Shown: in pieces, positions 4,760 to 20,950 of the stretch
Position numbering within the stretch: position 1 is the stretch's first letter
Layout: each line of letters starts with the position of its first letter
IMG/VR virus record: IMGVR_UViG_3300005764_000014
Length of the DNA stretch: 20,950 nt
Reading direction: 5' to 3' (one strand)
Origin: an uncultured virus (IMG/VR IMGVR_UViG_3300005764_000014)
Taxonomy: Duplodnaviria; Heunggongvirae; Uroviricota; Caudoviricetes
Position numbers and translations under genes: made by a program
The notes under the pieces: model-generated
What the model saw: the letters and a program-made list of their open reading frames with translations, nothing else
Databases searched by the model: none
What the model was told of the DNA's origin: nothing

Positions 4760-4766
4760 CGGTCCC

Positions 4767-5660
4767 CTACGTGGTGTGGAAGGCCGGCTCCGCGGCCTGC
4801 TCACCGGACGCCGCCACGGCCTCGTGGGTGGGCCCGTAGGTGTTGGTGACCCGGTCATGCAGCCCGGCGGCCAGATCCTTCACCCGGTTCAGGTTCTCCT
4901 TGACCTCGGCGCAGGCACGGGCCAGGTCCGCGCCGATGCCCAGGGTGGTGCCGTCGGTGGGGATGAGCCCGCCGAGCTGGTCGATCAGCGGGCCGATCTG
5001 CTCCAGCGCGGACACGTCCAGGCTGTCGGCGGCCTGGGCGACCTGCTCGCTGCTCTTGACGACCTCCTCGTAGCTGGCGTCCGACCCGCCGCCGCCGCCG
5101 TTGCCCGGTGCTCCGTTGCTCTCACTCACTGGTGTACCTCCGTTGGTTGATCCGTTTCCTTGCCCCGTCTGTGTTGGTGTCACCCAGCCGCCGAGTGGCC
5201 CGTACTCCTCCCAGGTGAGCGGGACCGCGCGCCGGCCGGGTGTCTTGCCGTCGGCCAGCGGCGGCCCGTCCGGGTTCTCGCTGCGGCGCTGGTGCCCCTG
5301 GGCGGTGACCGCCTGCCAGTGCTGCCGCGCCTCGTCCCACAGCTTCCGCCGCTCGGCCGACCGCTTGGCCTCGTCCCGGTGGGCGGTCGCCCGGGTGGTT
5401 GACAGGACGTGGTGGTGGTCGTTCATCCCGGCGCGGAACCCCTCGCGGGTGACCGGGAAGCCGTGCCGGATCTCGTTCATCCACCACCCGGTGGTCGCCT
5501 GGCGGGCGGCGCGGCGGGCGTTGCTGTTCCGGTCGTAGTGCCCGCCCCGGGCGGTCGCCCGGGTGCGGGCGGCGGTGCGCTGCCTGCCGACCGCCGTGGT
5601 GGACGCCCCCCAGGCCTGGGTGATCGCGTAGCACAGCCCGATGAAAAACAGCAGTTCCAT
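4767..5660 (-). CDS. TraA-like transfer protein (hydrophobic N-terminus, helical C-terminal domain)
   Basis: Directly upstream of traB. The C-terminus (TYGPTHEAVAASGEQAAEPAFHTT) resembles, from recall, proteins preceding traB in actinomycete elements. Internal GGAGG-N7-GTG at 5129. Confidence 0.6.
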   Translation of the reverse strand: MELLFFIGLCYAITQAWGASTTAVGRQRTAARTRATARGGHYDRNSNARRAARQATTGWWMNEIRHGFPVTREGFRAGMNDHHHVLSTTRATAHRDEAKRSAERRKLWDEARQHWQAVTAQGHQRRSENPDGPPLADGKTPGRRAVPLTWEEYGPLGGWVTPTQTGQGNGSTNGGTPVSESNGAPGNGGGGGSDASYEEVVKSSEQVAQAADSLDVSALEQIGPLIDQLGGLIPTDGTTLGIGADLARACAEVKENLNRVKDLAAGLHDRVTNTYGPTHEAVAASGEQAAEPAFHTT

Positions 5661-5661
5661 G

Positions 5662-6081
5662 TCAGCCTCCGGTGCTGATCGAGGTCGACGCCTGCGACAC
5701 CGTGGACGGCAGGCTGTTCAGCGCGGCGAACGGGGTGGCCGCCGCCGCGACCAGCACGCCGAGCACGATGGCGATGTAGAAGTTGTGGCCCTTGCCCGAA
5801 TGCCGGGGCATCGAGTGGTGTACGAACAGGAAGATCAGCACGGCGACGATGGCGGCGAAGATCGCCGCTGCGGAGTAGCCGAGGATCTGCGCGCCCAGCT
5901 TGCCGATCAGCCCGGCCGTGAACATGAGGACGCGGGCCAGGATGCCGACCAGGCGGCCGGTGGTGCCGACGGTCACGATGCCGATGAACACCACGATCGG
6001 GGCGGCTTTCTTGAACCGGCCCAGGGCGTGGGCGGTGATGGCGAGGGCGATGGCGATTAGCCCCCATTCAGCCGGTGTCAT
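5662..6081 (-). CDS. multi-pass membrane protein, Spd-like
   Basis: 139 aa with about 4 hydrophobic helices; in the tra operon. Confidence 0.7.
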   Translation of the reverse strand: MTPAEWGLIAIALAITAHALGRFKKAAPIVVFIGIVTVGTTGRLVGILARVLMFTAGLIGKLGAQILGYSAAAIFAAIVAVLIFLFVHHSMPRHSGKGHNFYIAIVLGVLVAAAATPFAALNSLPSTVSQASTSISTGG

Positions 6082-6090
6082 GGTCAGCTC

Positions 6091-6492
6091 CTAGATCACT
6101 CCGGTCAGGACCAGCACGGTGACGGTCAGCACCGTGAGGCACAGCAGCAGCTTGGGCGGTGAGTCCCCGGACCACACCAGCAGGTAGGCCAGCGGCGCGA
6201 CCGCGAAGGCGTGCACCGCGCCGTAGGCCAGCCGGGGCCAGCGCAGCGCCCCGGCGGAGTAGTACTCCGCGGCGGTGCGGTGCATCGCCCACAGCGCCAT
6301 GATCGAGGGCGGCGCGGCGTGGACCACCGAGGCACCGGACAGCGCGCCGTTCAGCACCCGGTCGATCGTGCCGGCGGTGAGGGAGCCGACCCGCTGCGGC
6401 CGGTCCTCTCGCGCGCGGGCGCGTGTGTGCGCGTTGATCCCCGGGATTTCCTCCTCGGTCGGGCGGACGGGCAGGTCGACGGGCGCGGTCAT
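6091..6492 (-). CDS. membrane protein, Spd-like
   Basis: 133 aa with two C-terminal hydrophobic helices; ATGA-coupled to the upstream gene. Confidence 0.7.
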   Translation of the reverse strand: MTAPVDLPVRPTEEEIPGINAHTRARAREDRPQRVGSLTAGTIDRVLNGALSGASVVHAAPPSIMALWAMHRTAAEYYSAGALRWPRLAYGAVHAFAVAPLAYLLVWSGDSPPKLLLCLTVLTVTVLVLTGVI

Positions 6493-6728
6493 GCGGCTCT
6501 CCCCTCGGTGCCGGCGGCCAGGCCGGCGAGGAACGTGGCGGCCTGGTGCATCAGCGCCTGGCGGTCGGCGGAGCGGGCGGCGGTGGCCCGGAACCAGTCG
6601 TAGGCGGTGGCGAGCTGCGCCTCACCGGTCGGCGCGGCCTGGAGCTGGTCCCGCCAGCGCTCGGGCCGGGCGTCACAGCGGCGCGGCTGCCGGGTGCCGT
6701 CGGCCAGCAGGCGGCGGTGGCCAGCCAT
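6489..6728 (-). CDS. hypothetical protein (79 aa)
   Basis: ATG at 6728 in a TGATG overlap; MAGHRRLL...EGRAA. Confidence 0.65.
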   Translation of the reverse strand: MAGHRRLLADGTRQPRRCDARPERWRDQLQAAPTGEAQLATAYDWFRATAARSADRQALMHQAATFLAGLAAGTEGRAA

Positions 6729-11056: not shown

Positions 11057-12142
11057 TCAGTTACCTGCAATTCTGGTGATCTGGTCCGCGATGTCGCGGA
11101 CCCGCTCGTAGCCGGCGTCGGCGTCGGTGGTGGCCGCCACGGCGGCGGGCCCGGTCGCGGCCGGCGGCTCCTCGGCGTACGGGTCCTCCCACTGCCATTC
11201 CGGCCACAGGTAGAACTCCATCTCCCACCAGCCGAAGGAGTAGCCGTCCGGGGCGACGTTGTCGTTCAGCCACCGCTCGACGCCGTCGGCGGCGTCGGAC
11301 AGCACTTCCTCCTCATCGAGGGTCAGGCTCTCGGCGGGACGCGGGCTCATCGAGGCCATCTTCCGGTCGGCCAGGTCGATGACCTCGGGCACCGGGTAGC
11401 CGTGGCTCTCGGCCTTCTGGATCAGGTGCGCGAGGCCGTACTGGCCCCAGTGCCCCTCGACCCAGCAGCCCTGGTCGGCCTCGGTGGCCTCGATGATCTG
11501 CGGGGGCTGGCGGTAGAAGTGTGGCTGCGGCCCGTCGTACACGCAGATCTCGGTGCCGGGCTCGCAGTAGCAGAACGCATCGCAGGCGGCGCAGGAGTGC
11601 AGCCGGCCCGGCTCGTGCCCGTTCTCGGCGTGGTCGGGGCGGAAGGCGACCGCCCAGCCGGCCGGCTCGCTCTCATCGGCGGTGTCGACCACCACGGTCA
11701 CGTAGGTGCCGGGGGTGCGCCGGATGTGGGCTTCGAGCCCGCCGCCGACGAACTCCGACGGGTGCATGACCGGGCCGGTGTAGGAGTACTGGCCGGTCCA
11801 GCCGTCCAGCAGAACCCAGCCCTGCTGCCACGCCTCGCGGACGTAGTCGGCCTCGTGCTCGGCGGAGATCTGCCCGTCATCGTCACAGGCCATCGTCAGC
11901 TCGGGCGCGTGCACCCCGGCGGCGTCGGAGATCCCGCCGCCGCCGTGCACCCGCACCGGGTGGCCGAAGTCCATGATGTCGTTGAGGGCCTTGCCCTCAT
12001 ACGGCGCGGTGACGATGTGGTAGTCCATGTTCCGCTCCGCGATCCGGTCCCCGATGCCGCCGCTGGTGCGGTGCCCGCACGCGCAGGTGAGGAACCGCTG
12101 GCCTAGCTGGTCTTGCTGGCCCACGACGCTGTGGGTGATCAT
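11057..12142 (-). CDS. acidic multi-module phage protein (361 aa) with shared C-terminal peptide
   Basis: AAGGAG RBS, ATG 12142; GWTGQYSYTGPVMHPSEFVGG module; ends ADAGYERVRDIADQITRIAGN. Confidence 0.75.
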   Translation of the reverse strand: MITHSVVGQQDQLGQRFLTCACGHRTSGGIGDRIAERNMDYHIVTAPYEGKALNDIMDFGHPVRVHGGGGISDAAGVHAPELTMACDDDGQISAEHEADYVREAWQQGWVLLDGWTGQYSYTGPVMHPSEFVGGGLEAHIRRTPGTYVTVVVDTADESEPAGWAVAFRPDHAENGHEPGRLHSCAACDAFCYCEPGTEICVYDGPQPHFYRQPPQIIEATEADQGCWVEGHWGQYGLAHLIQKAESHGYPVPEVIDLADRKMASMSPRPAESLTLDEEEVLSDAADGVERWLNDNVAPDGYSFGWWEMEFYLWPEWQWEDPYAEEPPAATGPAAVAATTDADAGYERVRDIADQITRIAGN

Positions 12143-12855
12143 GACATCTCCTTGATCTTGTAGGGGTACATGGACCCCTCGCTGTGGCGGGTGCCCGTCC
12201 GGCGGTCCCCGGTGGTCTCGTAGGCGCTGAAGTACAGCACGCCGCCCTCGTGGTAGAAGTAGCCGCCGGTCACCAGCGCCGACAGGGCCTCGCTGGTGGT
12301 CACCGTGACGTAGCCACGGGACCACAGGAACACGCCCTCGGGGGTGAAGGTGGCGATGTGCTGGCCGATCAGGTGGACCCGGACCTCGGTGCTGCCAATG
12401 CCGGCGTGCTCGGTGAACTTGCCGAACCGGTAGCCGTGGGTGTTGGCCAGCACCCGGGACGGGTGCTTGGACCGGGCGATGGCCAGGGCCTGCGCGTAGT
12501 CCATCCGGGTCCAGTGCAGCGGCGTGTAGGGCTGGCCCGCCTTGTCCTGCTCGGCCAGCCGCTCGGCCACCGGGGTGGTCCCGGTGGCCTCGAAGTAGGC
12601 GGCGAGGGCCGCCTCGATGTCGTCGCCGTTGTAGACGGTGAACTCGCCGTTGGCCGTGGTGACCGAGAACCGGCCGCCGTCAAGCTCGCGCTGATCCGGG
12701 TCGGGGTGCTCCACCCACAGGCAGTAGTCGGTGTCGTTCGCCTGGCTGCCGAAGGCGGGGCAGGCGTCGTTGTGCCAGGAGACGTCGGGCAGGCCCGCCG
12801 AGATGATCTCGGCGGGCACTGCGTATCCGGCTCCGTGCTCGGTCTCCCACTTCAT
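12139..12855 (-). CDS. phage hypothetical protein (238 aa)
   Basis: TAATG overlap at 12855; DVSWHNDACPAF motif, recalled from phage hypothetical proteins. Confidence 0.75.
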   Translation of the reverse strand: MKWETEHGAGYAVPAEIISAGLPDVSWHNDACPAFGSQANDTDYCLWVEHPDPDQRELDGGRFSVTTANGEFTVYNGDDIEAALAAYFEATGTTPVAERLAEQDKAGQPYTPLHWTRMDYAQALAIARSKHPSRVLANTHGYRFGKFTEHAGIGSTEVRVHLIGQHIATFTPEGVFLWSRGYVTVTTSEALSALVTGGYFYHEGGVLYFSAYETTGDRRTGTRHSEGSMYPYKIKEMS

Positions 12856-13088
12856 TACCGGCGCTCCGTCCCGTCCGCGTTGATCACGACGGCCATGGTG
12901 TGCCGCTTGTAGCGGATGGTCACCCGGCTGACGCCGAAAGTCTGCGCGTCGGCCTTGTTGACGGCGCGGCCGGTGTGCGCGCCCATAGACAGGACGGTGA
13001 AGTCCTTGCCCTGGTTCCACGCCTCGATGGCCTTGGCCTTGGAGGGGTAGTCCCGCCCGTACGCGGGGCCGACGGTGATGTCTTCCAT
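12855..13088 (-). CDS. small phage protein (77 aa)
   Basis: AGGAG RBS; PAYGRDY..K.......GKDF motif, recalled from phage early genes. Confidence 0.75.
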   Translation of the reverse strand: MEDITVGPAYGRDYPSKAKAIEAWNQGKDFTVLSMGAHTGRAVNKADAQTFGVSRVTIRYKRHTMAVVINADGTERR

Positions 13089-13117
13089 GTCATCTCCTGT
13101 ATCAGAATCTTGCTGCC

Positions 13118-13159
13118 AGACTATGCGCTGGCCTACGCTTCTGTCAACAGTTGAGCAGG
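13118..13159 (-). promoter_or_regulatory. sigma70/HrdB-type promoter with overlapping palindromic operator (copy 1)
   Basis: TTGACA(13147-13142)-N18-TAGTCT(13123-13118); TCAACAGTTGA at 13144-13154. Confidence 0.75.
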
Positions 13160-13164
13160 AGATT

Positions 13165-14715
13165 CTATTCCTTTCCGCGCCGGGCGTGCTCGATGGCGGT
13201 GGCCAGGCTGACAGAGCGCTTCGCACCGCTCGGCCTGGTGCCGCCCACTTCCCGGTCCACCCGTCCGCCGGCGGCGTCGGAGGCCTGCGGGGTGGGCAGC
13301 GTCCGCAGCCCGCGGTGCTTGGCCACCGACCGGGCGGTACTGCTCAGGCCGGCCACCGTCCGCACCACCATGTTCAGCTCGTTGCCGTGCGCGTCCTCCC
13401 CGACTCCGTGCATCGTCGGCAGCAGCGGGATGGCGGGCGAGCTGGCCGGCGGGCGGTCGGCGGGCTCCAGCGGCCCGTACAGGTAGGCCACCGCCATCGC
13501 GGCCTGGGCGGGCACCACGCCGTTGCCGATCGCGCGGAGCTGCGCAGAGCGGGACAGCCCCGGCACGCCGGTGACCCAGCCTGGCGGCAAGCCCATCATC
13601 CACTCAGGGAAGACGGCGGCCATGCGCGGCTGGCCGTTCCGGCCGGGCTCGATCGGGCACGGGGCGGCTATGCCGAAGACCCGCTCCCACCGGGCGACGG
13701 CGGGGCCGTACTCCGCCCAGTCGACCGCTGTCCCAGCTTCGCCGCCCGGGTAGGGGACTGGCCCAGATTCCGGCCAGCCAGCAGCCGCAGGATCTCTCCC
13801 GTCAGCATCGTGTCGCCCCGGGACCGGTGCTGGTTCGGGGAGCCGTGCCGGGCCTCGCCAGTGAGCGGGGTAGGGAGCAAGGCGAGCCCCGCCACCTGAT
13901 CCTCGATCGACGGGTGGTGGCCACCCGCCAGCCGTTTGGCCGCCGGCTGCGCTCCCCCGTTGGAACCCAGGTTCGCCCCCGGCGTGCGGAACAGCCGGGA
14001 GACCTCCGCGGGCAGTTGCTTGCCCTCCCTGCGGTCCCGGGTGTCCATTCCACCCGAGCCCCGCCCAGCCGTGGTCGGCGTCGGCAGGAACCGGGTGACC
14101 ACCGCCACCAGGCCCAGGTGCGACGGCGAGGCCGGCTGGCCGGTGTCCGAGCGGATGTCCCCCCGCGGGTAGGCCCCCTTGAAGTCCCGGGCTGAGGGCG
14201 TGGGCATCAACGGCGACGAGGAACCAGCGCTCGCGGCGGTGGCAGCATCCGGCCCAGTCAGCTCGGAAAAGCCCGTAACGCCCCACATACCCGAGCGCGG
14301 CCAGCGACCGCACGACGGCGTCCATGGCTGCCCCGCCTTCGATAGACAGCAGCCGAGGGACGTTCTCGAACACGAGCACTCTGGGCCGTGCTGCCATTCT
14401 GCTGATCCCTGCCGGGATGTACGGCCAGATCCACCGCTCATCGGCGGTTCCCTTCTGCTTGCCCGCGTTCGACACCGGCTGGCAGGGGAACCCCCCGCAC
14501 AGCACATGCACCGGCGGGACGTCTTCCCACTTGATCTTGGTGATGTCACCCAGGTTCGGCACGCTGGGGAACCGGTGACCGATGATGGTGGCGCAGTGCT
14601 CATCGTTGTCCGCGGCCCACGCTAGGCGCGGGGTGCCGCCGAGCGCGGCGACAACCCCCGCTTCGAGGCCGCCGTAGCCGGTGCAGACCGACCCGACCTC
14701 GTACTCCCCGGTCAT
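13165..14715 (-). CDS. DNA (cytosine-5) methyltransferase
   Basis: Motif I SVCTGYGG, PNLGDI, IV GGFPCQ, VI FENV, VIII HRRERWF, then EWMMGLP and X LRAIGNGVVP. Confidence 0.9.
   Translation of the reverse strand: MTGEYEVGSVCTGYGGLEAGVVAALGGTPRLAWAADNDEHCATIIGHRFPSVPNLGDITKIKWEDVPPVHVLCGGFPCQPVSNAGKQKGTADERWIWPYIPAGISRMAARPRVLVFENVPRLLSIEGGAAMDAVVRSLAALGYVGRYGLFRADWAGCCHRRERWFLVAVDAHALSPGLQGGLPAGGHPLGHRPAGLAVAPGPGGGGHPVPADADHGWAGLGWNGHPGPQGGQATARGGLPAVPHAGGEPGFQRGSAAGGQTAGGWPPPVDRGSGGGARLAPYPAHWRGPARLPEPAPVPGRHDADGRDPAAAGWPESGPVPYPGGEAGTAVDWAEYGPAVARWERVFGIAAPCPIEPGRNGQPRMAAVFPEWMMGLPPGWVTGVPGLSRSAQLRAIGNGVVPAQAAMAVAYLYGPLEPADRPPASSPAIPLLPTMHGVGEDAHGNELNMVVRTVAGLSSTARSVAKHRGLRTLPTPQASDAAGGRVDREVGGTRPSGAKRSVSLATAIEHARRGKE
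13668..14207 (-). CDS. overlapping +1-frame ORF with four (L/F)xTP repeats, nested in the methyltransferase
   Basis: LMPTPSARD, FLPTPTT, LFRTPGA, LLPTPLTGE; codons in this frame are GC3-rich over ~14207-13780 while the main frame looks like a shadow there. Start uncertain. Confidence 0.65.
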   Translation of the reverse strand: MPTPSARDFKGAYPRGDIRSDTGQPASPSHLGLVAVVTRFLPTPTTAGRGSGGMDTRDRREGKQLPAEVSRLFRTPGANLGSNGGAQPAAKRLAGGHHPSIEDQVAGLALLPTPLTGEARHGSPNQHRSRGDTMLTGEILRLLAGRNLGQSPTRAAKLGQRSTGRSTAPPSPGGSGSSA

Positions 14716-14760
14716 GCTCCTGATCCTTCCAGGCCCCGCGCGGTTGCACCAGGCCTGCGA

Positions 14761-15270
14761 TCAGTCTTCACTGGCGGGCTCCTCACCGATCTGGGCGGCG
14801 ATGGCCTCGCGGACCATGCCCATCAGGTCGATGCGGTGCCTGACCTCGTAGGCGTACAGATCCCGGCCGGCCGCGTCGGCGGCCTCCTTCAGCCGGCTCC
14901 ACTCCTCGATCGTGGCCTCGCCGCCGAGGACGGTGCGGCCGACATCATGCCGGGAGATCTGCTCGGTGCCGGTCTTGCCGTCGAGCTTGACGATCAGGTT
15001 GCCGTTGCCGCCGTGCCGCCCGACCACGGTGCCGGCCTTGTAGGTCCGCACCGCGCCGCCGGTCGCCAGGATGAACGGGATCGACAGCTTCGAGGTCGCC
15101 GCTTTGCCGATCTTGCGGAGCTGGGTTTCCAGCTCCTGCTTGCTGTCCGCGGTGACCCGCCGGCCGGTCTCCCCGGTGACGGCGAACCATTCGCCGGCAT
15201 CGGTCACGTAGGCGTTGACGGTCACACCGCCGACGTCGACAGTTCCCGCTGGGTACTCGTCTCCTGCCAT
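14761..15270 (-). CDS. hypothetical protein (169 aa)
   Basis: AAGGAG RBS; GC3-rich. Confidence 0.75.
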   Translation of the reverse strand: MAGDEYPAGTVDVGGVTVNAYVTDAGEWFAVTGETGRRVTADSKQELETQLRKIGKAATSKLSIPFILATGGAVRTYKAGTVVGRHGGNGNLIVKLDGKTGTEQISRHDVGRTVLGGEATIEEWSRLKEAADAAGRDLYAYEVRHRIDLMGMVREAIAAQIGEEPASED

Positions 15271-15572
15271 TCAGAATCATCTCCTTGATCTGCGGCCATC
15301 CTAGCCGCCTTGCATACCGGGCAGCGCCAGGTGGCGCTGCTCTGCTTCATCGCCCGCTCGCGGTTGCGGTCACCGGGGCGGACGTCCACCACTTCCCAGG
15401 TGATGCCCTGCTCGATGGCCAGCCGGAACAGCACGGAGCCCGCCCCGGCCGCGTGGGCGGCGAGGCGGGCTTCGAGGCCGGCGGTCCAGCCGGTGTAGTG
15501 CTGCGGCCAGTGCCGGGGCGGGGCGGTGGTCTTGATCCTGGCGGAAAAGTGAACCGTGTAGATGTGCCCCAT
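15222..15572 (-). CDS. GIY-YIG-like endonuclease (116 aa)
   Basis: HIYTVHF...QHYTGWT..LEARLAAH..G.G...ERAMK...CPVC. Confidence 0.75.
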   Translation of the reverse strand: MGHIYTVHFSARIKTTAPPRHWPQHYTGWTAGLEARLAAHAAGAGSVLFRLAIEQGITWEVVDVRPGDRNRERAMKQSSATWRCPVCKAARMAADQGDDSEWQETSTQRELSTSAV

Positions 15573-15625
15573 CACCCCCGAGTCGACGGGGGCGGTGCGG
15601 GGCCGGCGGCCCGACGGCGGCAGCA

Positions 15626-15958
15626 CTACCGCGCCTTCCCGCCCTCGGCCACCGGGATGGCGGTCTCGGGTATCCAGCGGACCACCATGCCGCCACCGTC
15701 GTAGGGCGTGTCGTTGAGCAGGTCCGCGCGGGCCTGGGCGGCCCAGGCGTGGTAGTAGACACTCTCGGCGTCCTGGTAGGGGTACCGGCCGTCGGCCTGC
15801 CAGACGAACACGCCATGGAGCCCGTGCTCGGTCACCAGGTCCCCGCCGCAGTAGGCGCAGCGCTTGCGCTTCGGCATGCCGCCGCCTTGCGTGTGCACCC
15901 CGGGCAGGTCCGGGTTGGACCGGTGGACGCAGTGGTGCTGGGTGGCCATCTTGCGCAT
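15626..15958 (-). CDS. hypothetical protein (CAYC motif)
   Basis: TAATG-coupled to the upstream gene; 110 aa. Confidence 0.65.
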   Translation of the reverse strand: MRKMATQHHCVHRSNPDLPGVHTQGGGMPKRKRCAYCGGDLVTEHGLHGVFVWQADGRYPYQDAESVYYHAWAAQARADLLNDTPYDGGGMVVRWIPETAIPVAEGGKAR

Positions 15959-16209
15959 TACGCCCCCCTCCCGGCTCCATAGAACTCCGCCGCACTGACA
16001 TCGGGGCTGGGGTCGCTCTCAGCGGGCTGGTAGCGCTGTTCGTAGCGCGCTTGCGCCCGCGCGTCGAGCGCCTCGGCGGCGAGGCCGCACAGGGCATCCA
16101 CAAGCTGCAGGGCGCACGCCTCGGCGGCGTCCGGGCATTCCGGGTGGGCGTTGAACGCCGAGACCACTATGATCTCGGCAAGTCGGTTCATATCCAGCAT
16201 CATCATCAT
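15958..16209 (-). CDS. hypothetical protein (~80 aa)
   Basis: GGGAG followed by (ATG)4; the true start is probably a later ATG. Confidence 0.65.
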   Translation of the reverse strand: MMMMLDMNRLAEIIVVSAFNAHPECPDAAEACALQLVDALCGLAAEALDARAQARYEQRYQPAESDPSPDVSAAEFYGAGRGA

Positions 16210-16280
16210 CTCCCTGGTAATACCTTAACGGGCGGGGCCGACAATTCACATCGGTTTACCCGCCCGCCATTCCCTTTCCT

Positions 16281-16697
16281 TTATGACCGGTCCTGCTCCT
16301 GCGGGCCGTGGCAGTGCTCGGGCTGCGGCACGGTCGAGGCCACCTTGTACACCCGCTGCAGGCCGGGGATCGGCTGCAGGTTGACGTCGATGGGGTAGAC
16401 GTCCACGCCGGTGATCCGGGCGGCCTCCCAGGCTTCCTCGTCGGGGTAGGTGATCAGCACCTGGACGTCGGCGGGCTCCAGCCCGAGCCGCTCCTCACAG
16501 TTGGCGCAGCCTTCGGCGGGGTACTCCGGGTGCTCGCAGCCTTCCATGTGGTGCCGGGCGTCCTCGCTGCCGTTGCAGAAGTACTTCCCGGGGCGCGGGG
16601 CGTTCTTCGCGGTGCGGTAGGTGTGCGCTTCCTCGCCCTCACCGAGGGCCAGCAGCAGGCCGCAGCCTGAGCAGGCGGCGGGGGGTGTGCTGTTCAT
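16281..16697 (-). CDS. Cys/His-rich hypothetical protein (138 aa)
   Basis: TAATG-coupled; CSGC, CEH, CANC. Confidence 0.7.
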   Translation of the reverse strand: MNSTPPAACSGCGLLLALGEGEEAHTYRTAKNAPRPGKYFCNGSEDARHHMEGCEHPEYPAEGCANCEERLGLEPADVQVLITYPDEEAWEAARITGVDVYPIDVNLQPIPGLQRVYKVASTVPQPEHCHGPQEQDRS

Positions 16698-16963
16698 TAC
16701 CGGTCCTCTCCCGCCCGCTCTAGCGTGTCCAGCGACGGCCAGGGCTGCTCGCCCTTGTGGGCGTAGACCACTTCGACCGTGGTCTTGACCACCCGTACCG
16801 GGTTGCTGCCGAGTGATTCAGCCAGGTTCACCGCCGCCTCGTGGGCGTCGGTGTCGGTGGGCGCGTCACGGCCCACGACGAACTCGCCGCTCGGCTCGAC
16901 CTTCCACTTGCCCAGGTCGAACATCTCGACCTTGTAGGTGATGTCGTTCATCATCATCATCAT
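16697..16963 (-). CDS. hypothetical protein (~85 aa)
   Basis: GAGGAG followed by (ATG)5. Confidence 0.7.
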   Translation of the reverse strand: MMMMMNDITYKVEMFDLGKWKVEPSGEFVVGRDAPTDTDAHEAAVNLAESLGSNPVRVVKTTVEVVYAHKGEQPWPSLDTLERAGEDR

Positions 16964-16979
16964 CTCCTCATACGCCTGA

Positions 16980-17007
16980 AGGGGGGCCCGCCAGCGGCGG
17001 ACCCCCC
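16980..17007. terminator. GC-rich intergenic hairpin
   Basis: GGGGGGCCCGCC-AGC-GGCGGACCCCCC, one mismatch, just after the stop of 17017..17499. Confidence 0.4.
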
Positions 17008-17016
17008 GTCGGGGTG

Positions 17017-17499
17017 TTACTTCTCGACGCCTGGAGCCAGCAGGTCGTCCAGCTTGACTTCCTCCAGCGCGCGGGCCAGCACGTCCCTCCAGTACCGGCC
17101 GGTCTCGTTGCCCAGCGGCACCATCCGCTTGATCCGGTCCCCGCCGTCATCGCGGATGATGACGAACAGGGTCTGGCCGACATTGTCCTTCGCGGCCGGC
17201 CACCGGACGATGGTGCCCTGGGTCCAGGGGGTGCGGTAGGGCTGGCCGACGGCCAGGTCCACTGTCTCGGACGTGCCGGCCGTGGTCGACGTGTATCCCT
17301 CGGGCAGTTCCTTGGTGCACAGCGCCTTGTCGGCCTTCAGGCCGCGCGGGCCCTGCCGCAGCCCGAGGGTGCGCGGGTTGACCTTCTCGACGGTCCACTG
17401 ACCGGGGTACTTGGCGCTGGGCACCATGTCGGGCCAGGTCGCGCCGTCCATCACGTAGACCTTGTCGCGCACCTTGAACGTCTGCTCTGTCATCATCAT
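17017..17499 (-). CDS. hypothetical protein (~158 aa), possibly SH3-like folds
   Basis: AAGGAG followed by (ATG)3; FKVRDKVYV N-terminus. Confidence 0.75.
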   Translation of the reverse strand: MMMTEQTFKVRDKVYVMDGATWPDMVPSAKYPGQWTVEKVNPRTLGLRQGPRGLKADKALCTKELPEGYTSTTAGTSETVDLAVGQPYRTPWTQGTIVRWPAAKDNVGQTLFVIIRDDGGDRIKRMVPLGNETGRYWRDVLARALEEVKLDDLLAPGVEK

Positions 17500-17522
17500 C
17501 TCCTTGGTCTGCCTGCCACTCC

Positions 17523-17558
17523 ATGATGGCGGCTGCTTACACTTCTGTCAACAGTTGG
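17523..17558 (-). promoter_or_regulatory. promoter/operator copy 2
   Basis: TTGACA(17551-17546)-N17-CATCAT; TCAACAGTTGG at 17548-17558. Confidence 0.7.
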
Positions 17559-17568
17559 GCTGGGATTT

Positions 17569-18405
17569 CTATTCCACGCCCGTGATGCGGCTGATCTCCT
17601 CGGTGATCGCCACCACGGCCTCGTAGGTGGTGTCCGCGCTCTCGGCGTTGCGAGCGGTGAACCCGGGGCCGGCCCAGTCATCCCCGGTGCAGCAGGACCG
17701 CTCGATGCGGCAGGTGCCGTCGCCGTTACTCACCAGGACAGCGTCCAGTTCGTGGCCGCAGCGGGTGCGGTGCCCGGCGCGCATCCGCTGGTACATCACG
17801 GTGTCAGGCAGGGGCACCCTCTCGGGAGCGGCGGCCTGCTTGGCAGCATCCCGGGCAGCCGCCTCGACGTCCTCCCAGCCGTAGTAGCCGCCGCACGAGT
17901 CGAGGGTCTCGCCGTCCGGGCCGAGCACCGCCCAGCAGAAGGTGTCGCCGTTGATGTAGTGGCTGTAGACCGCGACGTCACCGGCGATCAGCTTGGCCGC
18001 CTGCGCCTTGTCCTCATCGGACCCGGTCCATTCGGTGCCCTGGGTCTCCCGCCAGTTTTCAGCGGTGACGTAGGCCACGCCGCACTGGGCGGAGTCCCAC
18101 TTGTCATCGAAGGGGTAGGTGCGCGGCCCGGTGGACAGCGCGATGCCGCTGTGCTCGTAGACCCAGACCGGCTGGCTGTACAGCGCCACCCCGGCCTCCA
18201 GCAGGTGGCCCTCGATCTGCGGCCACGCCGGGCCGTTGCCGAACGAGGCGATGTCCAGCCCGGCGTCGTTGGGGAAGTTCCACCGCCGGCCCCACATGAT
18301 CAGGTCGCAGCCGTGGATGTCGTCGCGCGGGGAGCCGGTGTCCGGGTCGTGGTCGATCTCGACCGTCAGGCCGGCCTCGGTGAATGTGTCTATTGTCATT
18401 GTCAT
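17569..18405 (-). CDS. conserved phage/ICE-type acidic hypothetical protein with shared C-terminal peptide
   Basis: YEHSGIALS...WDSAQCG...Y..YINGD...DSCGGYYG motifs, recalled from mobile-element hypothetical proteins; ends ADTTYEAVVAITEEISRITGVE. Start 18405 or 18399. Confidence 0.8.
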   Translation of the reverse strand: MTMTIDTFTEAGLTVEIDHDPDTGSPRDDIHGCDLIMWGRRWNFPNDAGLDIASFGNGPAWPQIEGHLLEAGVALYSQPVWVYEHSGIALSTGPRTYPFDDKWDSAQCGVAYVTAENWRETQGTEWTGSDEDKAQAAKLIAGDVAVYSHYINGDTFCWAVLGPDGETLDSCGGYYGWEDVEAAARDAAKQAAAPERVPLPDTVMYQRMRAGHRTRCGHELDAVLVSNGDGTCRIERSCCTGDDWAGPGFTARNAESADTTYEAVVAITEEISRITGVE

Positions 18406-18424
18406 CTCCTGGTGTTTCTTCCGC

Positions 18425-18889
18425 CTATGCTACAAGGCGGCTCAGACATTCTGTCAACGGTTGATGAGCCGGTAACCGGCCTTGCCGCCAGGGAGCTTTC
18501 CGCGTACGGCCAGTCCCTTGCGGACGAGGCTTGCGGTGGTCCGCGATATACCTTCGGGACTGCGGCCGAGAGCGCTGGCCAGCTCGGCCAGGCCGGTCAG
18601 TGACGAGGCGGAGAGCAGGCTCAGCACCTGCCTCTCGTTCGTGGTGATCTTGCCGTTCATGTGTGCTCTCCTCATCTAGTTCGAGTGTGTCCATGTCGAC
18701 CTTGCCGGACGCGGCCAGGTCCGCAACGGTGCGGTAGTAGCCGGCGTGGAACCCGCCGGGGTGGGTGACTGAGAACTGCTCCCCCTCGCACGGTGGGAGC
18801 GCCCTCGCGTTCAGGTTGCCCTGGTCTCCGACCAGTCTCATCACGATCACTTCGACCCGCATCCCGTTGGCGTCATACCAGCGGGGCAT
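18425..18889 (-). CDS. hypothetical protein; N-terminal ~72 aa look genuine, the remainder overlaps the wHTH gene
   Basis: GGAGAGG RBS; MRVEVI...GYYRTVADL...VDMDTLE. Confidence 0.55.
   Translation of the reverse strand: MPRWYDANGMRVEVIVMRLVGDQGNLNARALPPCEGEQFSVTHPGGFHAGYYRTVADLAASGKVDMDTLELDEESTHERQDHHEREAGAEPALRLVTDRPGRAGQRSRPQSRRYIADHRKPRPQGTGRTRKAPWRQGRLPAHQPLTECLSRLVA
18427..18464 (-). promoter_or_regulatory. promoter/operator copy 3
   Basis: TTGACA(18457-18452)-N19-TAGCAT; TCAACGGTTGA at 18454-18464 contains the upstream gene's stop codon. Confidence 0.65.
18454..18660 (-). CDS. MarR-like winged-helix DNA-binding protein (68 aa)
   Basis: ITTNERQVLSLL....TGLAELASALGRSPEGISRTTASLVRKGLAVR; GAGGAG RBS. 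Confidence 0.8.
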   Translation of the reverse strand: MNGKITTNERQVLSLLSASSLTGLAELASALGRSPEGISRTTASLVRKGLAVRGKLPGGKAGYRLINR

Positions 18890-18928
18890 CCATTACCTCT
18901 CCTTGCTGGGCACACCGTTGTGCCCGCA

Positions 18929-18950
18929 CTTCTGTCAACAGTTGAGCAGG
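18929..18950 (-). promoter_or_regulatory. promoter/operator copy 4 (no clear -10)
   Basis: 22/22 identical to 13138-13159 (CTTCTGTCAACAGTTGAGCAGG). Confidence 0.7.
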
Positions 18951-18968
18951 CAGTTCTGTTCCCGTGGG

Positions 18969-18998
18969 TGGACAGCCTGCCCTGCTGGTGCCTACGAT
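18969..18998 (+). promoter_or_regulatory. putative promoter for the MYHH peptide gene
   Basis: TGGACA-N18-TACGAT. Confidence 0.5.
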
Positions 18999-19033
18999 CG
19001 GGCCCTCATCACAGCTCACCCTGGAGGACCGTC

Positions 19034-19210
19034 ATGGGCGGCAGCCAGATGTACCACCACACCGTGCCGCAGGCCGCGGGCGACATGTACCACCACTCGA
19101 TGCTTCTGCTCCACACCGCCGCGCTGCACGGCCAGCTCGCCATCTCCGCGGCGGTGCTCGCGGTAGCCTGCGGGTATGCAGGACTGCGCAGGGCCCGATC
19201 CCGGGGATGA
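19034..19210 (+). CDS. small Met/His-repeat membrane peptide (58 aa)
   Basis: GGAGGA RBS; MGGSQMYHHTVPQAAGDMYHHSM, then a hydrophobic helix and RRARSRG. Confidence 0.65.
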   Translation: MGGSQMYHHTVPQAAGDMYHHSMLLLHTAALHGQLAISAAVLAVACGYAGLRRARSRG

Positions 19211-19223
19211 CACCAAGGCGGTA

Positions 19224-19415
19224 ATGCCCGACGTGCTGGTGCGCCGGCCGCGCCTCGGCCTGGCCAGCCCCGGCAGCGGCTGGGGCGGCCTGAGAGAGCC
19301 TGAACAGCCGGGGGTGTTCACCAGCGCCGACGGCACGGTGGGCAGCGGCTACGACGTGGCCGGGCGGCGGGCGGCCCGCAGCCGCCGCGCCGCCCGGCTG
19401 GACCGCGAGATCTAA
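19224..19415 (+). CDS. possible small hypothetical protein (63 aa)
   Basis: Fills the gap to the convergent gene; weak RBS. Confidence 0.35.
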   Translation: MPDVLVRRPRLGLASPGSGWGGLREPEQPGVFTSADGTVGSGYDVAGRRAARSRRAARLDREI

Positions 19416-19633
19416 CCTGGCGGATTGGCGCTGTTCGGGCACCGGGCCGCCTCCCGGGAGGTCTCGGCGTACGGGCACCGCACCGGCGGCTTGCCGCAGA
19501 TGTGGCAGTAGGGCAGCCCGCGATCGAGCCGGGCCAGGGTGGTCCGCGCGCACCACCAGCCGAACCGCTCGGGCAGGTTGAGCGCGACCGCCCAGAACAC
19601 CCCGAGGGTGATCAGTTCCCACCGTGCCATCAT
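19412..19633 (-). CDS. hypothetical protein (73 aa; hydrophobic N-terminus, CHIC motif)
   Basis: GAGGAG RBS; ATGA overlap. Confidence 0.6.
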   Translation of the reverse strand: MMARWELITLGVFWAVALNLPERFGWWCARTTLARLDRGLPYCHICGKPPVRCPYAETSREAARCPNSANPPG

Positions 19634-19848
19634 TCTCCTCGCCTGATTACTGCCACGACCTCCGACCAGGGCAGCCGGTGCTCGGCCTCCCCGATCTCGG
19701 CGTAGCAGGCGGCCTGGGCGACCCAGGTGACCCGGGCGCGCACCCGCTTGTTCTTGTAGTCGAACACCACGGTGTCGCCCACAGCGGCCTTCTCCGGGCC
19801 CCACACGTCCCGCACCGGCCCGAGGCCGGGGGAGGCTTCGGCGGTCAC
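19630..19848 (-). CDS. hypothetical protein (72 aa), SH3-like pattern
   Basis: GGAGG RBS; GTGA overlap; VGDTVVF...RARV. Confidence 0.65.
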   Translation of the reverse strand: MTAEASPGLGPVRDVWGPEKAAVGDTVVFDYKNKRVRARVTWVAQAACYAEIGEAEHRLPWSEVVAVIRRGE

Positions 19849-20000
19849 GCCGGCCTCCTGTTCTGCCAGGTGCTGATGTCAGCGGCTAGCGTGACCGAGG
19901 GGTAGGGCTCATCCGGCCGTTGCGGGGTCACCAGGCAGAAGAAGAACTCACCCAGCATCCGGCCCGTCAGGGCCAAGCCCTGCAGATACCACTTGGCCAT
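19845..20000 (-). CDS. small hypothetical protein (51 aa)
   Basis: ATG 20000, 5 nt after the upstream stop; coupled to the next gene. Confidence 0.5.
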   Translation of the reverse strand: MAKWYLQGLALTGRMLGEFFFCLVTPQRPDEPYPSVTLAADISTWQNRRPA

Positions 20001-20005
20001 CGTGA

Positions 20006-20338
20006 TCAGCCCGCTCCGTAGTAGCTGTGCTCGGGCATGGTGTCGGTGCCCTTGCGCACCGGGATCACCCAGCCCTTGCGGGACCGGCCCGGGACGCCCG
20101 CAGCGGCCCAGTCGATCCACGGGGGTACGTCGAACTCGTAGTACGGCTGCGAGTGCGCCGCCTCGGGGTTTTCGTTCACCGGCAGCGGTGGCCGGTTGCC
20201 GTCCTTGTTGCGGGTCTGCCGGACGAACCACATCTCCACCTGACGGCGGTCGATGTCACCGCGCCCGTCGGGGAACTCGAAGGTCTCGTTGAATGCGGTG
20301 GCGATCACCTGGTAGCCGCCGCGCAATTCCTCGGTCAT
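20006..20338 (-). CDS. putative MerR/excisionase-like DNA-binding protein (110 aa)
   Basis: AAGGAG RBS; IDRRQVEMW..R.....PPLPV....YYEFDV..W pattern. The ORF is solid; the function is tentative. Confidence 0.55.
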   Translation of the reverse strand: MTEELRGGYQVIATAFNETFEFPDGRGDIDRRQVEMWFVRQTRNKDGNRPPLPVNENPEAAHSQPYYEFDVPPWIDWAAAGVPGRSRKGWVIPVRKGTDTMPEHSYYGAG

Positions 20339-20377
20339 GGTCTTCTCCTTGATCGGAATCCTATTCTGCCAATGGCT

Positions 20378-20407
20378 AAAGGGGACCGGAGGCGTTCCCG
20401 GTCCCCT
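20378..20407 (-). terminator. intrinsic terminator-like hairpin
   Basis: AGGGGACCGG-N8-CCGGTCCCCT followed by a short T-run on the minus strand, 10 nt after the stop at 20418. Confidence 0.65.
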
Positions 20408-20417
20408 GTGCCTTTCT

Positions 20418-20950
20418 TCAGTTACCCGCTATGCGGGAGATTTCCTCGGTGATCTGCCGGACCTGCTCGTAGCTGCTGTCGCTGTGGTGCTCAGCCGAGC
20501 CGGGGCCAGTCTTACTGCGCCGGCAGGCCGGGTCGTCGCAGTAGTCGTAGCGGCCGGACGGGTCGTGGTAGTGGCCGGTCCCGGGTGCGGGAGGCCAGGT
20601 GCCGTCGGGGGTCATGCCCTCGATGGTGTGCCGGCCGCCCTTGGGGCAGTCCGGGTTCCACGACCACGGCTGGGTTTTCACCACGCAGTAGGCGTCATTC
20701 CGGGCCTCGTACTGGACGCCCTCGCCGCACTTGGTGCACGGCCCCGAGCCGTAGTTGCCGCCGCTCTCGATCAGGTCGTGACGCGGGGTGTGGTTCGGGA
20801 AGTAGGACTTGACGCACAGGTAGCCCAGGTGGTGCTCGTCCGGGTACTCCGGGCCAGGCACCTGGTGGTGGCTGTTGCTGGTGCCACCGTGGGTGTGGTC
20901 GATGTGGTAGTCCAGCCCGCGCACGTTCCAGAACGTCTCCCCGCAGGCGC
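20418..20950 (-). CDS. Cys/His-rich protein (5' truncated) with shared C-terminal peptide
   Basis: Frame is open to the window end (ACGETFWNVRGLDYH...); ends SDSSYEQVRQITEEISRIAGN. Confidence 0.75.
   Translation of the reverse strand, partial: ACGETFWNVRGLDYHIDHTHGGTSNSHHQVPGPEYPDEHHLGYLCVKSYFPNHTPRHDLIESGGNYGSGPCTKCGEGVQYEARNDAYCVVKTQPWSWNPDCPKGGRHTIEGMTPDGTWPPAPGTGHYHDPSGRYDYCDDPACRRSKTGPGSAEHHSDSSYEQVRQITEEISRIAGN

What the first reader, a model, noticed from the sequence alone, without database searches (positions are those of the whole stretch)
11057..20483. Three unrelated proteins end in the same ~21-aa C-terminal peptide: candidate undescribed targeting tag
Seen: ADAGYERVRDIADQITRIAGN* (11057-11122), ADTTYEAVVAITEEISRITGVE* (17569-17637) and SDSSYEQVRQITEEISRIAGN* (20418-20483); consensus [AS]DxxYExVxxI[AT][DE][EQ]I[ST]RIxG. 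The rest of the three proteins shows no similarity to my eye. Conserved residues use different codons (final Ile ATT/ATC/ATA, Arg AGA/CGC), so conservation is at the protein level rather than a DNA repeat. Each tag is preceded by a short GP-containing linker, and the hydrophobic spacing suggests an amphipathic helix. Established analogues: the T4 internal-protein capsid-targeting sequence and C-terminal secretion signals. Inference: a portable address for capsid loading, conjugative translocation, docking to a hub protein, or proteolysis.
Basis: partly seen in the sequence, partly recalled or inferred. Interest (0 to 1): 0.88.

Follow-up and report, generated by a model that had tools for sequence, protein, structure and literature searches.

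The report
Shared helix tail on three proteins
Three otherwise unrelated proteins of an uncultured actinomycete phage- or plasmid-like element end in the same short helix on a flexible tether, most likely a handle that docks them to one still-unknown partner; the tail is real and under selection but has so far been seen only in this element and its closest relatives.

Summary
Three genes (11057-12142, 17569-18399, 20418 to beyond the window end) end in [AST]D..YE.V..I[AT][DE].I[ST][RK]I.G, 1-2 residues before the stop. The pattern occurs 3 times against 0 expected by chance. Conservation is at protein level. Outside the last 17-34 residues the proteins show no significant similarity.

The tail behaves as a portable module. 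Orthologues of two of the families keep it (P0022, P0026). 11 of 13 and 66 of 68 members of two body families lack it. AlphaFold2 gives confident bodies, a low-confidence tether and a terminal helix. The invariant residues are the whole hydrophobic face plus likely helix caps.

It is not a widespread tag. Profile and pattern searches of very large protein and DNA collections found it only in these five proteins, though the searches could detect only close variants.

The context is an ~83-kb actinomycete mobile element. The tagged genes lie between a replication/recombination module and FtsK/TraB-like transfer genes.

Best reading (about 0.5): a tethered amphipathic docking helix that binds one common partner, still unidentified. 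Related elements carry a second shared ending, a Cys-knuckle (CxxCGC..S).

The parts
11057..11122 (-). Tag 1 (ADAGYERVRDIADQITRIAGN + stop), C-terminus of P0021
   Evidence: Translation; regex; HMM 65.9 bits
11123..11161 (-). GP-containing tether before tag 1 (AATGPAAVAATTD)
   Evidence: Alignments; BLASTP segment starts here
11057..12142 (-). Gene for P0021 (361 aa), body of unknown family, tagged
   Evidence: GC3 0.95; no Pfam, PHROG, NCBIfam or PADLOC hit; orthologue P0022 keeps the tail
17569..17637 (-). Tag 2 (ADTTYEAVVAITEEISRITGVE + stop), C-terminus of P0007
   Evidence: Translation; regex; HMM 65.4 bits
17638..17673 (-). GP-containing tether before tag 2 (AGPGFTARNAES)
   Evidence: low pLDDT in the model
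17569..18399 (-). Gene for P0007 (276 aa; an ATG two codons upstream at 18405 is also possible): phrog_6186 body (1-190), degenerate Cys-knuckle, tether, tag
20418..20483 (-). Tag 3 (SDSSYEQVRQITEEISRIAGN + stop), C-terminus of P0020
   Evidence: Translation; regex; HMM 71.1 bits
20484..20522 (-). GP-containing tether before tag 3 (RRSKTGPGSAEHH)
   Evidence: pLDDT 45-64 in the model
20418..20950 (-). 3' part of the gene for P0020 (379 aa in full; the start lies beyond the window end), a broad Cys/His-rich family, tagged
   Evidence: gene seen whole in L096
5040..5084 (-). Weak internal tag-like start (SDASYEEVVKSSEQV) of the helical C-domain of P0025, after a Gly/Asn-rich linker. P0025 is a predicted membrane-anchored protein encoded just upstream of the FtsK/TraB-like gene. 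It is an uncertain relative of the tag.
   Evidence: 11.0 bits, E 0.0054 among 304 ORFs; 12.8 bits in G001; sequence

Best explanation
The tail is a tethered amphipathic docking helix. It is a module of roughly 30 residues: a GP-containing flexible linker, then a 16-17-residue helix (D-x-x-Y-E-x-V-x-x-I-x-x-x-I-x-x-I-x-G). The invariant hydrophobic face (Y, V, I, I, I) would insert into a groove of one common partner protein. In this way three unrelated accessory proteins of an ~83-kb actinomycete mobile element would be brought to the same place or complex. Shown: the module is real, selected at the protein level, separable from the bodies, predicted helical on a disordered tether, and gained or lost independently of the body domains. 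Inferred: that it binds a partner in trans, and that the partner is shared. The partner is not identified. Candidates are a protein of the element's replication/recombination or transfer machinery, or a host protein.
For: (1) Three matches against 0 expected, all at C-termini. (2) Protein-level constraint: synonymous differences and dN/dS 0.30-0.74. (3) Bodies unrelated by BLASTP. (4) Modularity. In the phrog_6186 family 1 of 13 fetched proteins has the tag; P0009 ends in the linker and is probably cut by its 1,573-bp contig, and 11 lack it. In the P0020 family 2 of 68 have it. In the P0021 family 2 of 2 have it. Close relatives of P0007 show four architectures: body only; body + Cys-knuckle; body + linker; body + knuckle + linker + tag. 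(5) Island of conservation. In P0020/P0026 the body is 87% identical, the tether 17-40% with 4-12 gap columns, and the tag 65% with no gaps. (6) Across five tails the invariant residues are P, D, Y, E, V, I, I, I, G, and all variation falls on the polar face. Hydrophobic moment is 0.40-0.65 and is reached by only 0.8-5.1% of shuffles. (7) AlphaFold2. P0007: body pLDDT >90, residues 197-258 <50, helix H250-273 at 72-75. P0020: body about 95, residues 321-360 at 45-64, helix H361-376 at 81-83. (8) Precedent for hubs on such elements: in pSVH1, TraB and Spd proteins interact with many small plasmid proteins, 36 of 360 pairs positive (PMC4447253, passages read). [quoted passage not shown]
Against: No partner has been identified and no binding is shown. 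The tail was found in only five proteins of one lineage, so 'address label' rests on three families. A 16-residue amphipathic helix could equally pack back on its own protein or self-associate. In the P0021/P0022 pair the tag (65%) is no better conserved than the body or linker (75% each). The AlphaFold2 helix confidence rests on almost no alignment depth in that region. Neither tagged body has a known function: Pfam, PHROG function labels, NCBIfam, PADLOC, Foldseek and VIA-align were all uninformative. So there is no functional logic yet for why these three proteins should be co-targeted.
Confidence: 0.5

Rival explanations
1. Assembly tag: the tails bind each other in a short helical bundle, so that the three proteins form one hetero-oligomer or homo-oligomers, with no separate receptor.
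For: Val/Ile lie at positions 4, 7, 11 and 14, an a/d-like spacing of 3-4-3. There are three carriers in one element. P0025 has a weak tag-like helix start after a Gly-rich linker and could be a fourth, membrane-anchored member.
Against: There are only about two heptads, which is short for a stable coiled coil (established knowledge, recalled). The e/g-like positions are not systematically charged (reading).
Confidence: 0.15
2. Translocation or packaging signal: the helix is read by the element's FtsK/SpoIIIE-like ATPase or by a packaging machine, so that the three proteins travel with the DNA into a recipient cell or particle.
For: An FtsK/TraB-like ATPase, a GntR regulator and a DUF2637 protein lie in the same window. 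FtsK-family EccC ATPases recognise C-terminal tails of T7SS substrates (recalled, not checked here). The tagged genes sit among establishment-type genes: a C5 methylase and a recombination module. An earlier, unchecked scan note reports a shared tail read as a transfer signal on Corynebacterium plasmids.
Against: TraB-type conjugation is described as dsDNA transfer with no known protein substrates (PMC4447253, passages read). The ATPase assignment itself is weak: Pfam 22.4 bits against a cutoff of 24, and EccCa 19 bits against 509. No capsid, portal or terminase gene was seen in the 35 kb held. The tail is neutral to acidic and lacks the YxxxD/E motif.
Confidence: 0.1
3. Stability or degradation signal: the helix is a degron or protease-adaptor site that gives the three proteins a common, short lifetime.
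For: It is C-terminal, exposed on a flexible tether and hydrophobic. Accessory early proteins of mobile elements are often tightly timed (general knowledge).
Against: The extreme C-terminus is not conserved: the tails end GN, GVE and GGGERP. That is unlike ssrA-type C-degrons, which depend on the last residues (recalled). Conserved helix caps and polar positions (D, E, D/E, R/K) point to a specific folded interface more than to a generic hydrophobic degron.
Confidence: 0.1
4. No common function: the tail is a leftover of 3'-end recombination or duplication within the element, or an intramolecular C-terminal helix that happens to be shared.
For: It is restricted to one lineage and five proteins. 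Mobile-element genes are mosaic. In P0021/P0022 the tail is no better conserved than the body.
Against: Nucleotide identity is only 60-68% while the hydrophobic face is invariant in 5 of 5 tails, and dN/dS is below 1. The tail is kept in orthologues across an indel-rich tether. All three copies end a reading frame.
Confidence: 0.12

Closest known systems
Encapsulation peptides of bacterial microcompartments
   Same: A short amphipathic helix joined to unrelated cargo proteins by a poorly conserved, disordered linker, terminal in position, and acting as a shared address (PMC12339742 and PMC4594438, abstracts in the search listing).
   Different: No shell (BMC-H/BMC-P) genes were seen among the 47 proteins scanned in the 35 kb held. 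There is no sequence similarity. The context here is a mobile element's replication and transfer region, not a metabolic operon.
C-terminal docking tails of phage replication and transcription proteins (for example T4 clamp-binding ends, SSB acidic tails); recalled, not checked here
   Same: Unrelated proteins of one element share a short C-terminal peptide that binds one hub. The tagged genes here lie next to a polymerase/helicase/exonuclease/annealase module.
   Different: Those tails are extended or acidic peptides, not a capped amphipathic helix. No QL[SD]LF-like clamp motif or acidic DDDIPF-like end is present (reading). No clamp or SSB gene was identified here.
TraB/Spd multiprotein complex of Streptomyces plasmids (pSVH1)
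   Same: The element carries an FtsK-like TraB-type ATPase, and there many small plasmid proteins of unknown function bind a common machinery (PMC4447253, passages read).
   Different: The passages read describe no shared tail motif. The ATPase here is only weakly FtsK-like. The tagged proteins have no pSVH1 homologues that I detected.
T4 capsid-targeting sequence on internal proteins
   Same: A short shared peptide on unrelated proteins of one virus, serving as an address.
   Different: The CTS is N-terminal and is cleaved by the prohead protease (recalled). This tail is C-terminal, and no capsid or protease gene was seen in the 35 kb held.
EccC recognition of the EsxB C-terminal signal in type VII secretion (recalled)
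   Same: An FtsK/SpoIIIE-family ATPase reads a C-terminal tail of its substrates, and an FtsK-like ATPase is encoded in the window.
   Different: There is no WXG hairpin and no YxxxD/E: the residue at Y+4 is R, V, R, L or T. The EccCa model match is 19 bits against a cutoff of 509.

Membership tests
BMC encapsulation peptide | Short amphipathic helix on a poorly conserved flexible linker at a protein terminus | tested here: met
   Hydrophobic moment 0.40-0.65; helix plus low-pLDDT tether; tether 17-40% identical with indels
BMC encapsulation peptide | Shell protein genes (BMC-H / BMC-P domains) in the same locus | tested here: not met
   Pfam scans of 30 window proteins and 17 proteins of the extra 14 kb show none; only 35 kb of about 83 kb could be seen
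T4-type capsid-targeting sequence | N-terminal position, removed by the prohead protease; capsid genes present (features recalled) | tested here: not met
   The tail is C-terminal; no capsid, portal or protease family (35 kb only)
T4SS C-terminal translocation signal | Positively charged, unstructured C-terminal tail read by a VirD4/TraD-type coupling protein (features recalled) | tested here: not met
   Net charge 0 to -2 and predicted helical; no coupling-protein or relaxase family found, the ATPase is FtsK-like
Type VII secretion substrate signal | YxxxD/E motif following a WXG helical hairpin (features recalled) | tested here: not met
   The residue four after Y is R, V, R, L or T in the five tails; no WXG100 family hit
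ssrA-like C-terminal degron | Conserved last residues with a free carboxylate (feature recalled) | tested here: not met
   The tails end GN, GVE, GN, GGGERP and GN
Membrane-targeting amphipathic helix (MinD/FtsA type) | Cationic amphipathic helix at the extreme C-terminus (feature recalled) | tested here: not met
   Amphipathic, but net charge 0, -2, -1, -1 for the four tails computed
Coiled-coil oligomerisation tag | Heptad a/d hydrophobic pattern long enough to self-associate | tested here: inconclusive
   The 3-4-3 spacing of V/I/I/I covers only about two heptads; self-association not established
Known protein domain (Pfam / PHROG / NCBIfam / PDB sequence) | Significant profile match covering the tail | tested here: not met
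   No family covers the tails; PHROG matches of P0007 end at residue 240; best PDB sequence hit has E 1.4

The most novel reading that the evidence does not exclude
The tail is a protein-translocation signal read by the element's FtsK/SpoIIIE-like (TraB-like) ATPase, in the way EccC reads the tails of type VII substrates. Three establishment proteins would then be sent into the recipient hypha together with the double-stranded DNA. That would be the first protein-transfer signal in TraB-type actinomycete conjugation. The Cys-knuckle ending of related elements would be an alternative version of the same address.
Probability: 0.07. Interest if true: 0.85.

Novelty: new variant of a known kind. 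Interest (0 to 1): 0.45.

Why it matters
Short shared tails on unrelated proteins are one of the few sequence-only clues to who works with whom among the many unannotated genes of phages and plasmids. Here the tail marks three unknown proteins as a functional set. Two belong to widespread families, and one of those sits beside recombination genes on proteobacterial plasmids. The tail also offers a simple handle, a roughly 20-residue peptide, to fish out their common partner. If that partner is the transfer ATPase or a host hub, it would reveal how this group of actinomycete elements organises establishment or transfer. The fact that close relatives carry a different shared ending (a Cys-knuckle) on the same families suggests that such endings are exchanged as modules. 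That can be tested once full-length relatives are available.

Tried and rejected
1. + strand reading of the coordinates gives other peptides; the tags are on the - strand.

3. DNA-pattern scans.
- Viral contigs: 0 matches.
- Genome contigs: 3 loci, all internal, at residues 219 of 385, 233 of 399 and 306 of 472. I take these for MltG/YceG-like proteins from memory.
- Metagenome contigs: 7 loci. Five are internal with 39-228 residues following. Two are near an ORF end: L006, 8 residues from the stop in an Arg-rich ORF that is probably non-coding, and L007, 2 residues from the stop in a 356-aa ORF that I take for an electron-transfer flavoprotein from memory. Neither has the D-x-x start or the GP linker.
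- These patterns fixed R and E/Q at positions where P0022 and P0026 have K, so they exclude only close variants.

4. tblastn of a 43-aa tail against PLSDB: 3 records at E 3-9, chance.

5. Tail profile against 5.8 billion clustered proteins ('longer'): 4 of 1446 candidates, namely the window's three proteins and P0022. It missed P0026, so the search is not exhaustive.

6. Tail profile against 1.84 billion representatives: the window's own P0021 plus two internal-repeat proteins (P0023 with 7 stretches, P0024 with 3), which are chance. By my arithmetic about 41 bits are needed for E <= 0.001, so tails like that of P0026 (34 bits) would be missed.

7. 401 Actinomycetota genomes: 6 partial hits of 18-20 bits, about the number expected by chance. 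Three further MAGs: none.

8. Looking for close relatives' DNA: viral contigs through the phrog_6186 family gave 206 relatives, best 45% identity. Through the P0020 family it gave 3 distant loci. PLSDB holds one plasmid with a P0020 relative, and none of its 38 neighbouring CDS share tails by eye. The phage collection has none.

9. Body function: Foldseek PDB found nothing at E <= 0.001 for either model. VIA-align wide gave best Z 6.5 over 63 residues, which is background. The ESM atlas gave no usable hit. NCBIfam and PADLOC gave nothing.

10. Other window C-termini that looked similar by eye (17017-17499 and 14761-15270) do not match the tail HMM.

11. P0025 as a relative or partner: it has only an 11-13-bit internal match and no plasmid homologues. 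It is kept as a lead only.

12. Complex prediction of the three 45-residue tails together: no verdict. The score was 0.02 against a mark of 0.34, the controls were not run and the partner's own fold was uncertain. This is neither support nor evidence against.

13. A shared DNA feature under the tails is rejected. The downstream contexts differ: a TGA-TC-ATG junction after tag 1, a promoter-like spacer after tag 2, and a hairpin plus TTT after tag 3.

14. Earlier scan notes by sequence and by place: nothing for this element.
Full report
WHAT IS THERE

The finding's coordinates are right, but the peptides are read from the minus strand. The plus strand gives unrelated letters. The minus strand gives ...ADAGYERVRDIADQITRIAGN*...ADTTYEAVVAITEEISRITGVE* and ...SDSSYEQVRQITEEISRIAGN*.

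They end three genes:
- P0021, 361 aa, window 11057-12142.
- P0007, 276 aa, window 17569-18399.
- P0020, 379 aa, window 20418 to beyond the window end. The full protein was recovered, and the whole gene was seen in L096.

All three genes have the strong third-position GC expected of real genes in this 71% GC DNA: GC3 is 0.93-0.95.

MORE THAN CHANCE

- A six-frame regex scan finds exactly three matches, each 1-2 residues before a stop.
- A degenerate DNA pattern gives 3 matches against 0 in 100 shuffles.
- A tail HMM scores the three at 65-71 bits. The next best of 304 window ORFs scores 11 bits.
- Pairwise nucleotide identity is only 36-41 of 60, with 4-5 identical residues per pair encoded by different codons.
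- dN/dS is 0.30-0.74, on only 20 codons, so it is noisy.
- What lies downstream of the three stops differs: a TGA-TC-ATG junction, a promoter-like spacer, and a hairpin followed by TTT. So no shared DNA element explains the similarity.

ARE THE PROTEINS OTHERWISE UNRELATED?

Yes, by BLASTP. The only significant segments are the C-terminal 17-34 residues (E 2e-6, 1e-5, 3e-4, 5e-5). P0021 against P0007 gives nothing significant. P0020 and P0021 share a short CACG...[ML]DYHI stretch at different positions, but it is not significant (17 bits, E 0.71).

ANATOMY OF THE TAIL

Five tails are now known: the window's three, P0022 (an orthologue of P0021, ending ...ADAGYEQVLSITEQITKITGGGERP) and P0026 (an 80% orthologue of P0020, ending ...TDATYEQVTGITEKITRIAGN).

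When aligned, the invariant residues are P (in the GP linker), D, Y, E, V, I, I, I and G. That gives D-x-x-Y-E-x-V-x-x-I-x-x-x-I-x-x-I-x-G. This is the whole hydrophobic face of an amphipathic helix, plus what look like an N-cap and a C-cap. Every variable position lies on the polar face.

- Hydrophobic moment is 0.40-0.65 and is reached by only 0.8-5.1% of shuffles. Net charge is 0 to -2.
- AlphaFold2 model of P0007 (13-sequence alignment): body residues 1-190 at pLDDT >90, residues 197-258 below 50, and a terminal helix H250-273 at 72-75.
- AlphaFold2 model of P0020 (68 sequences): body at about 95, residues 321-360 at 45-64, and helix H361-376 at 81-83.

The picture is a folded body, a flexible tether and a terminal helix.

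PORTABILITY

- The body of P0007 (residues 1-190) is phrog_6186 (E 1.5e-23). This domain is widespread on proteobacterial plasmids and viral contigs, where matches stop before the tail. In PLSDB, 40 records match and none covers 80% of the query. In the viral contigs, 206 relatives were found.
- Among 13 fetched family members, 11 lack the tag and only P0007 has it. P0009 ends in the linker (...GWAGDGFTARNSESAQ) and is probably cut by the end of its 1,573-bp contig.
- Close relatives of P0007 show four architectures: body only; body + Cys-knuckle; body + linker (cut); body + knuckle + linker + tag.
- The body of P0020 belongs to a family of 68 fetched proteins. Most end right after the core ...CPxGGxHE, and only P0020 and P0026 carry the tag.
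- In the P0020/P0026 pair the body is 87% identical, the tether is 17-40% identical with 4-12 gap columns, and the 20-residue tag is 65% identical with no gaps. The tag is an island of conservation.
- In the P0021/P0022 pair the tag (65%) is not better conserved than the body or linker (75% each). This counts against a simple 'most constrained part' argument.

HOW WIDESPREAD IS IT?

It is not widespread, as far as I could see.
- The tail profile against 5.8 billion clustered proteins returned 4 of 1446 candidates: the window's three and P0022.
- The word-free search of 1.84 billion representatives returned the window's own P0021 and two proteins with internal repeats, which are chance.
- Pattern scans of viral, genome and metagenome contigs gave 0, 3 and 7 loci, none convincing.
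- PLSDB gave nothing.
- 401 sampled Actinomycetota genomes gave 6 partial hits of 18-20 bits, about the chance number.

The sensitivity of these searches is limited. My DNA patterns fixed residues that differ in P0022 and P0026. The word-based search missed P0026. The representative search needs about 41 bits by my arithmetic. So only close variants are excluded.

CONTEXT

The window's left half carries:
- an FtsK/SpoIIIE-like ATPase at 2885-4858(-). Pfam gives 22.4 bits, just under the cutoff of 24. The best plasmid hits are Streptomyces and other actinomycete plasmid proteins at 28-38% identity;
- a GntR/UTRA regulator;
- a DUF2637 protein;
- an Rv2525c-like hydrolase;
- a C5 DNA methylase.

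A near-identical IMG/VR record (G001, 35,316 bp, classed 'provirus') shares 93% of the window's sampled 31-mers. Window coordinates equal G001 coordinates plus 5. The whole record holds only the same three tags.

G001 extends the window by 14 kb. On the tagged genes' strand and upstream of P0020 it shows a family-A DNA polymerase, an SNF2 helicase, a PD-(D/E)XK exonuclease and a Sak4-like annealase, with a divergent Prim-Pol gene. No capsid, portal or terminase family was seen in the 35 kb.

Contigs that carry these proteins and their relatives are repeatedly about 83 kb long (82,950; 82,966; 83,111; 83,687). That suggests a discrete replicon. One source labels a relative as coming from a Streptosporangiaceae MAG. 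I therefore call it an actinomycete phage- or plasmid-like element and leave the choice open.

On Pseudomonas plasmid pDK1 the homologue of P0007's body lies between ssb/recT and a yqaJ-type gene, again in a recombination context.

MECHANISM

The best-supported reading is a tethered amphipathic docking helix whose invariant hydrophobic face binds a groove on one common partner, bringing three unrelated accessory proteins to the same place.

- Shown: the module is real, selected, separable, helical on a tether, and gained or lost independently of the bodies.
- Inferred: it binds in trans to a shared partner.

Several sequence features argue against specific alternatives:
- The extreme C-terminus is not conserved (GN, GVE, GGGERP). 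This argues against signals that need a free, defined C-terminus.
- The helix is neutral to acidic. This argues against cationic membrane-targeting or T4SS-type tails.
- The residue four positions after Y is never D or E. This argues against the type VII YxxxD/E motif.

A precedent for a hub on such elements exists. In pSVH1, TraB and Spd proteins interact with many small plasmid proteins, with 36 of 360 pairs positive in two-hybrid tests (PMC4447253, passages read). [quoted passage not shown]

The rivals are an assembly tag (the tails bind each other), a translocation or packaging signal, a degron, and a functionless remnant. They are weighed in their own sections.

WHAT IS KNOWN AND WHAT IS NEW

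No Pfam, PHROG, NCBIfam or PADLOC family and no PDB sequence covers the tail. Two literature searches (listings only, apart from passages of PMC4447253) turned up no description of it. That is no proof that it is not in print.

The principle, a shared terminal peptide acting as an address, is well known. This particular tail, its carriers and its context are not described. Unchecked earlier notes of this scan report similar shared tails in other mobile elements, mostly with unknown partners. They are context, not evidence.

SECOND SHARED ENDING

In relatives, 3 of 13 phrog_6186-family proteins and 9 of 68 P0020-family proteins end in H..GxC-x-x-CGC-[EQP]-x(0-4)-S* (for example GPCPLCGCEGS and GPCENCGCES), always at the terminus. 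In the window's proteins a degenerate form of this knuckle lies just upstream of the GP linker: TCRIERSCCTGDDWAGPG in P0007 and YCDDPACRRSKTGPG in P0020. So this lineage of elements has at least two interchangeable C-terminal endings on the same unrelated families. That strengthens the view that these endings are modules. Their function is unknown.

VERDICT

I rate it a new variant of a known kind, with interest 0.45.

Noticed in passing
Relatives P0011, P0012, P0014 (phrog_6186 family) and P0027, P0028, P0029, P0031, P0032, P0034, P0036, P0039, P0059 (P0020 family); degenerate forms in the window at about 17674-17730(-) and 20523-20560(-): A second shared C-terminal ending, H..GxC-x-x-CGC-[EQP]-x(0-4)-S*, closes members of the same two unrelated families in related elements (3 of 13 and 9 of 68, always terminal). 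In the window's proteins a decayed version sits just before the GP linker. It looks like a zinc-knuckle-type module, but its function is unknown.
   Followed up: partly
window 13136-13153(-), 17540-17557(-), 18927-18944(-): An 18-nt element, CAACTGTTGACAGAAGTG, containing a TTGACA box occurs three times on the gene strand (0-1 mismatch) against 0 expected. About 45 nt of flanking similarity (GGAAyAGAA..CCTGCTCAACTG...) accompanies it. It is probably a shared promoter/operator that divides the tagged gene array into transcription units; one copy lies right after tag 2.
   Followed up: partly
window 4767-5660(-), motif at 5040-5084: P0025 is encoded just upstream of the FtsK/TraB-like gene. It has an N-terminal hydrophobic segment, a long Gly/Asn-rich linker and a helical C-domain that begins SDASYEEVVKSSEQV, a weak (11-13 bit) likeness to the start of the tag. 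No plasmid homologues were found.
   Followed up: partly
window 11057-11074(-) and 20418-20432(-): The last codons of tags 1 and 3 use codons that are unusual for 71% GC DNA (AGA ATT GCA GGT AAC TGA; ATA GCG GGT AAC TGA). Tag 2 does not. After tag 1 the next gene's ATG starts 2 nt past the stop. It may be a ribosome-binding or coupling constraint, or nothing.
   Followed up: no
G001 / L096 1765-12657 (window-equivalent about 21770-32660, beyond the window): A replication/recombination module lies upstream of the tagged array: family-A DNA polymerase, SNF2 helicase, PD-(D/E)XK exonuclease, Sak4-like annealase and a divergent Prim-Pol. IMG/VR classes the 35-kb record as a provirus, yet the window also has TraB-like, GntR and DUF2637 genes typical of actinomycete conjugative elements, and no virion genes were seen. 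The element may be a mosaic or a phage-plasmid.
   Followed up: partly
window 13165-14715(-): The 516-aa C5 DNA methylase ORF matches Pfam DNA_methylase only over residues 7-170 (profile 3-162 of 324), and one PHROG model matches only residues 330-412. The middle is Gly/Pro-rich, and a long overlapping ORF exists in another frame (13668-14603). It may be a large insertion or a frame problem.
   Followed up: no
L097 (NC_014124.1, pDK1) 5989-6615: The proteobacterial homologue of P0007's body domain (phrog_6186, unknown function) sits between ssb/recT and a yqaJ-type recombinase gene, next to the relaxase. This hints at a role in recombination or establishment for this widespread uncharacterised domain.
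   Followed up: partly
window 18454-18675(-): A 73-aa ORF looks like a small winged-helix regulator (weak NCBIfam Sta1-family match, E 7.9e-4, 19.5 bits against a cutoff of 80). It lies just downstream of one copy of the 18-nt promoter-like element, so it may be the regulator of these promoters.
   Followed up: no
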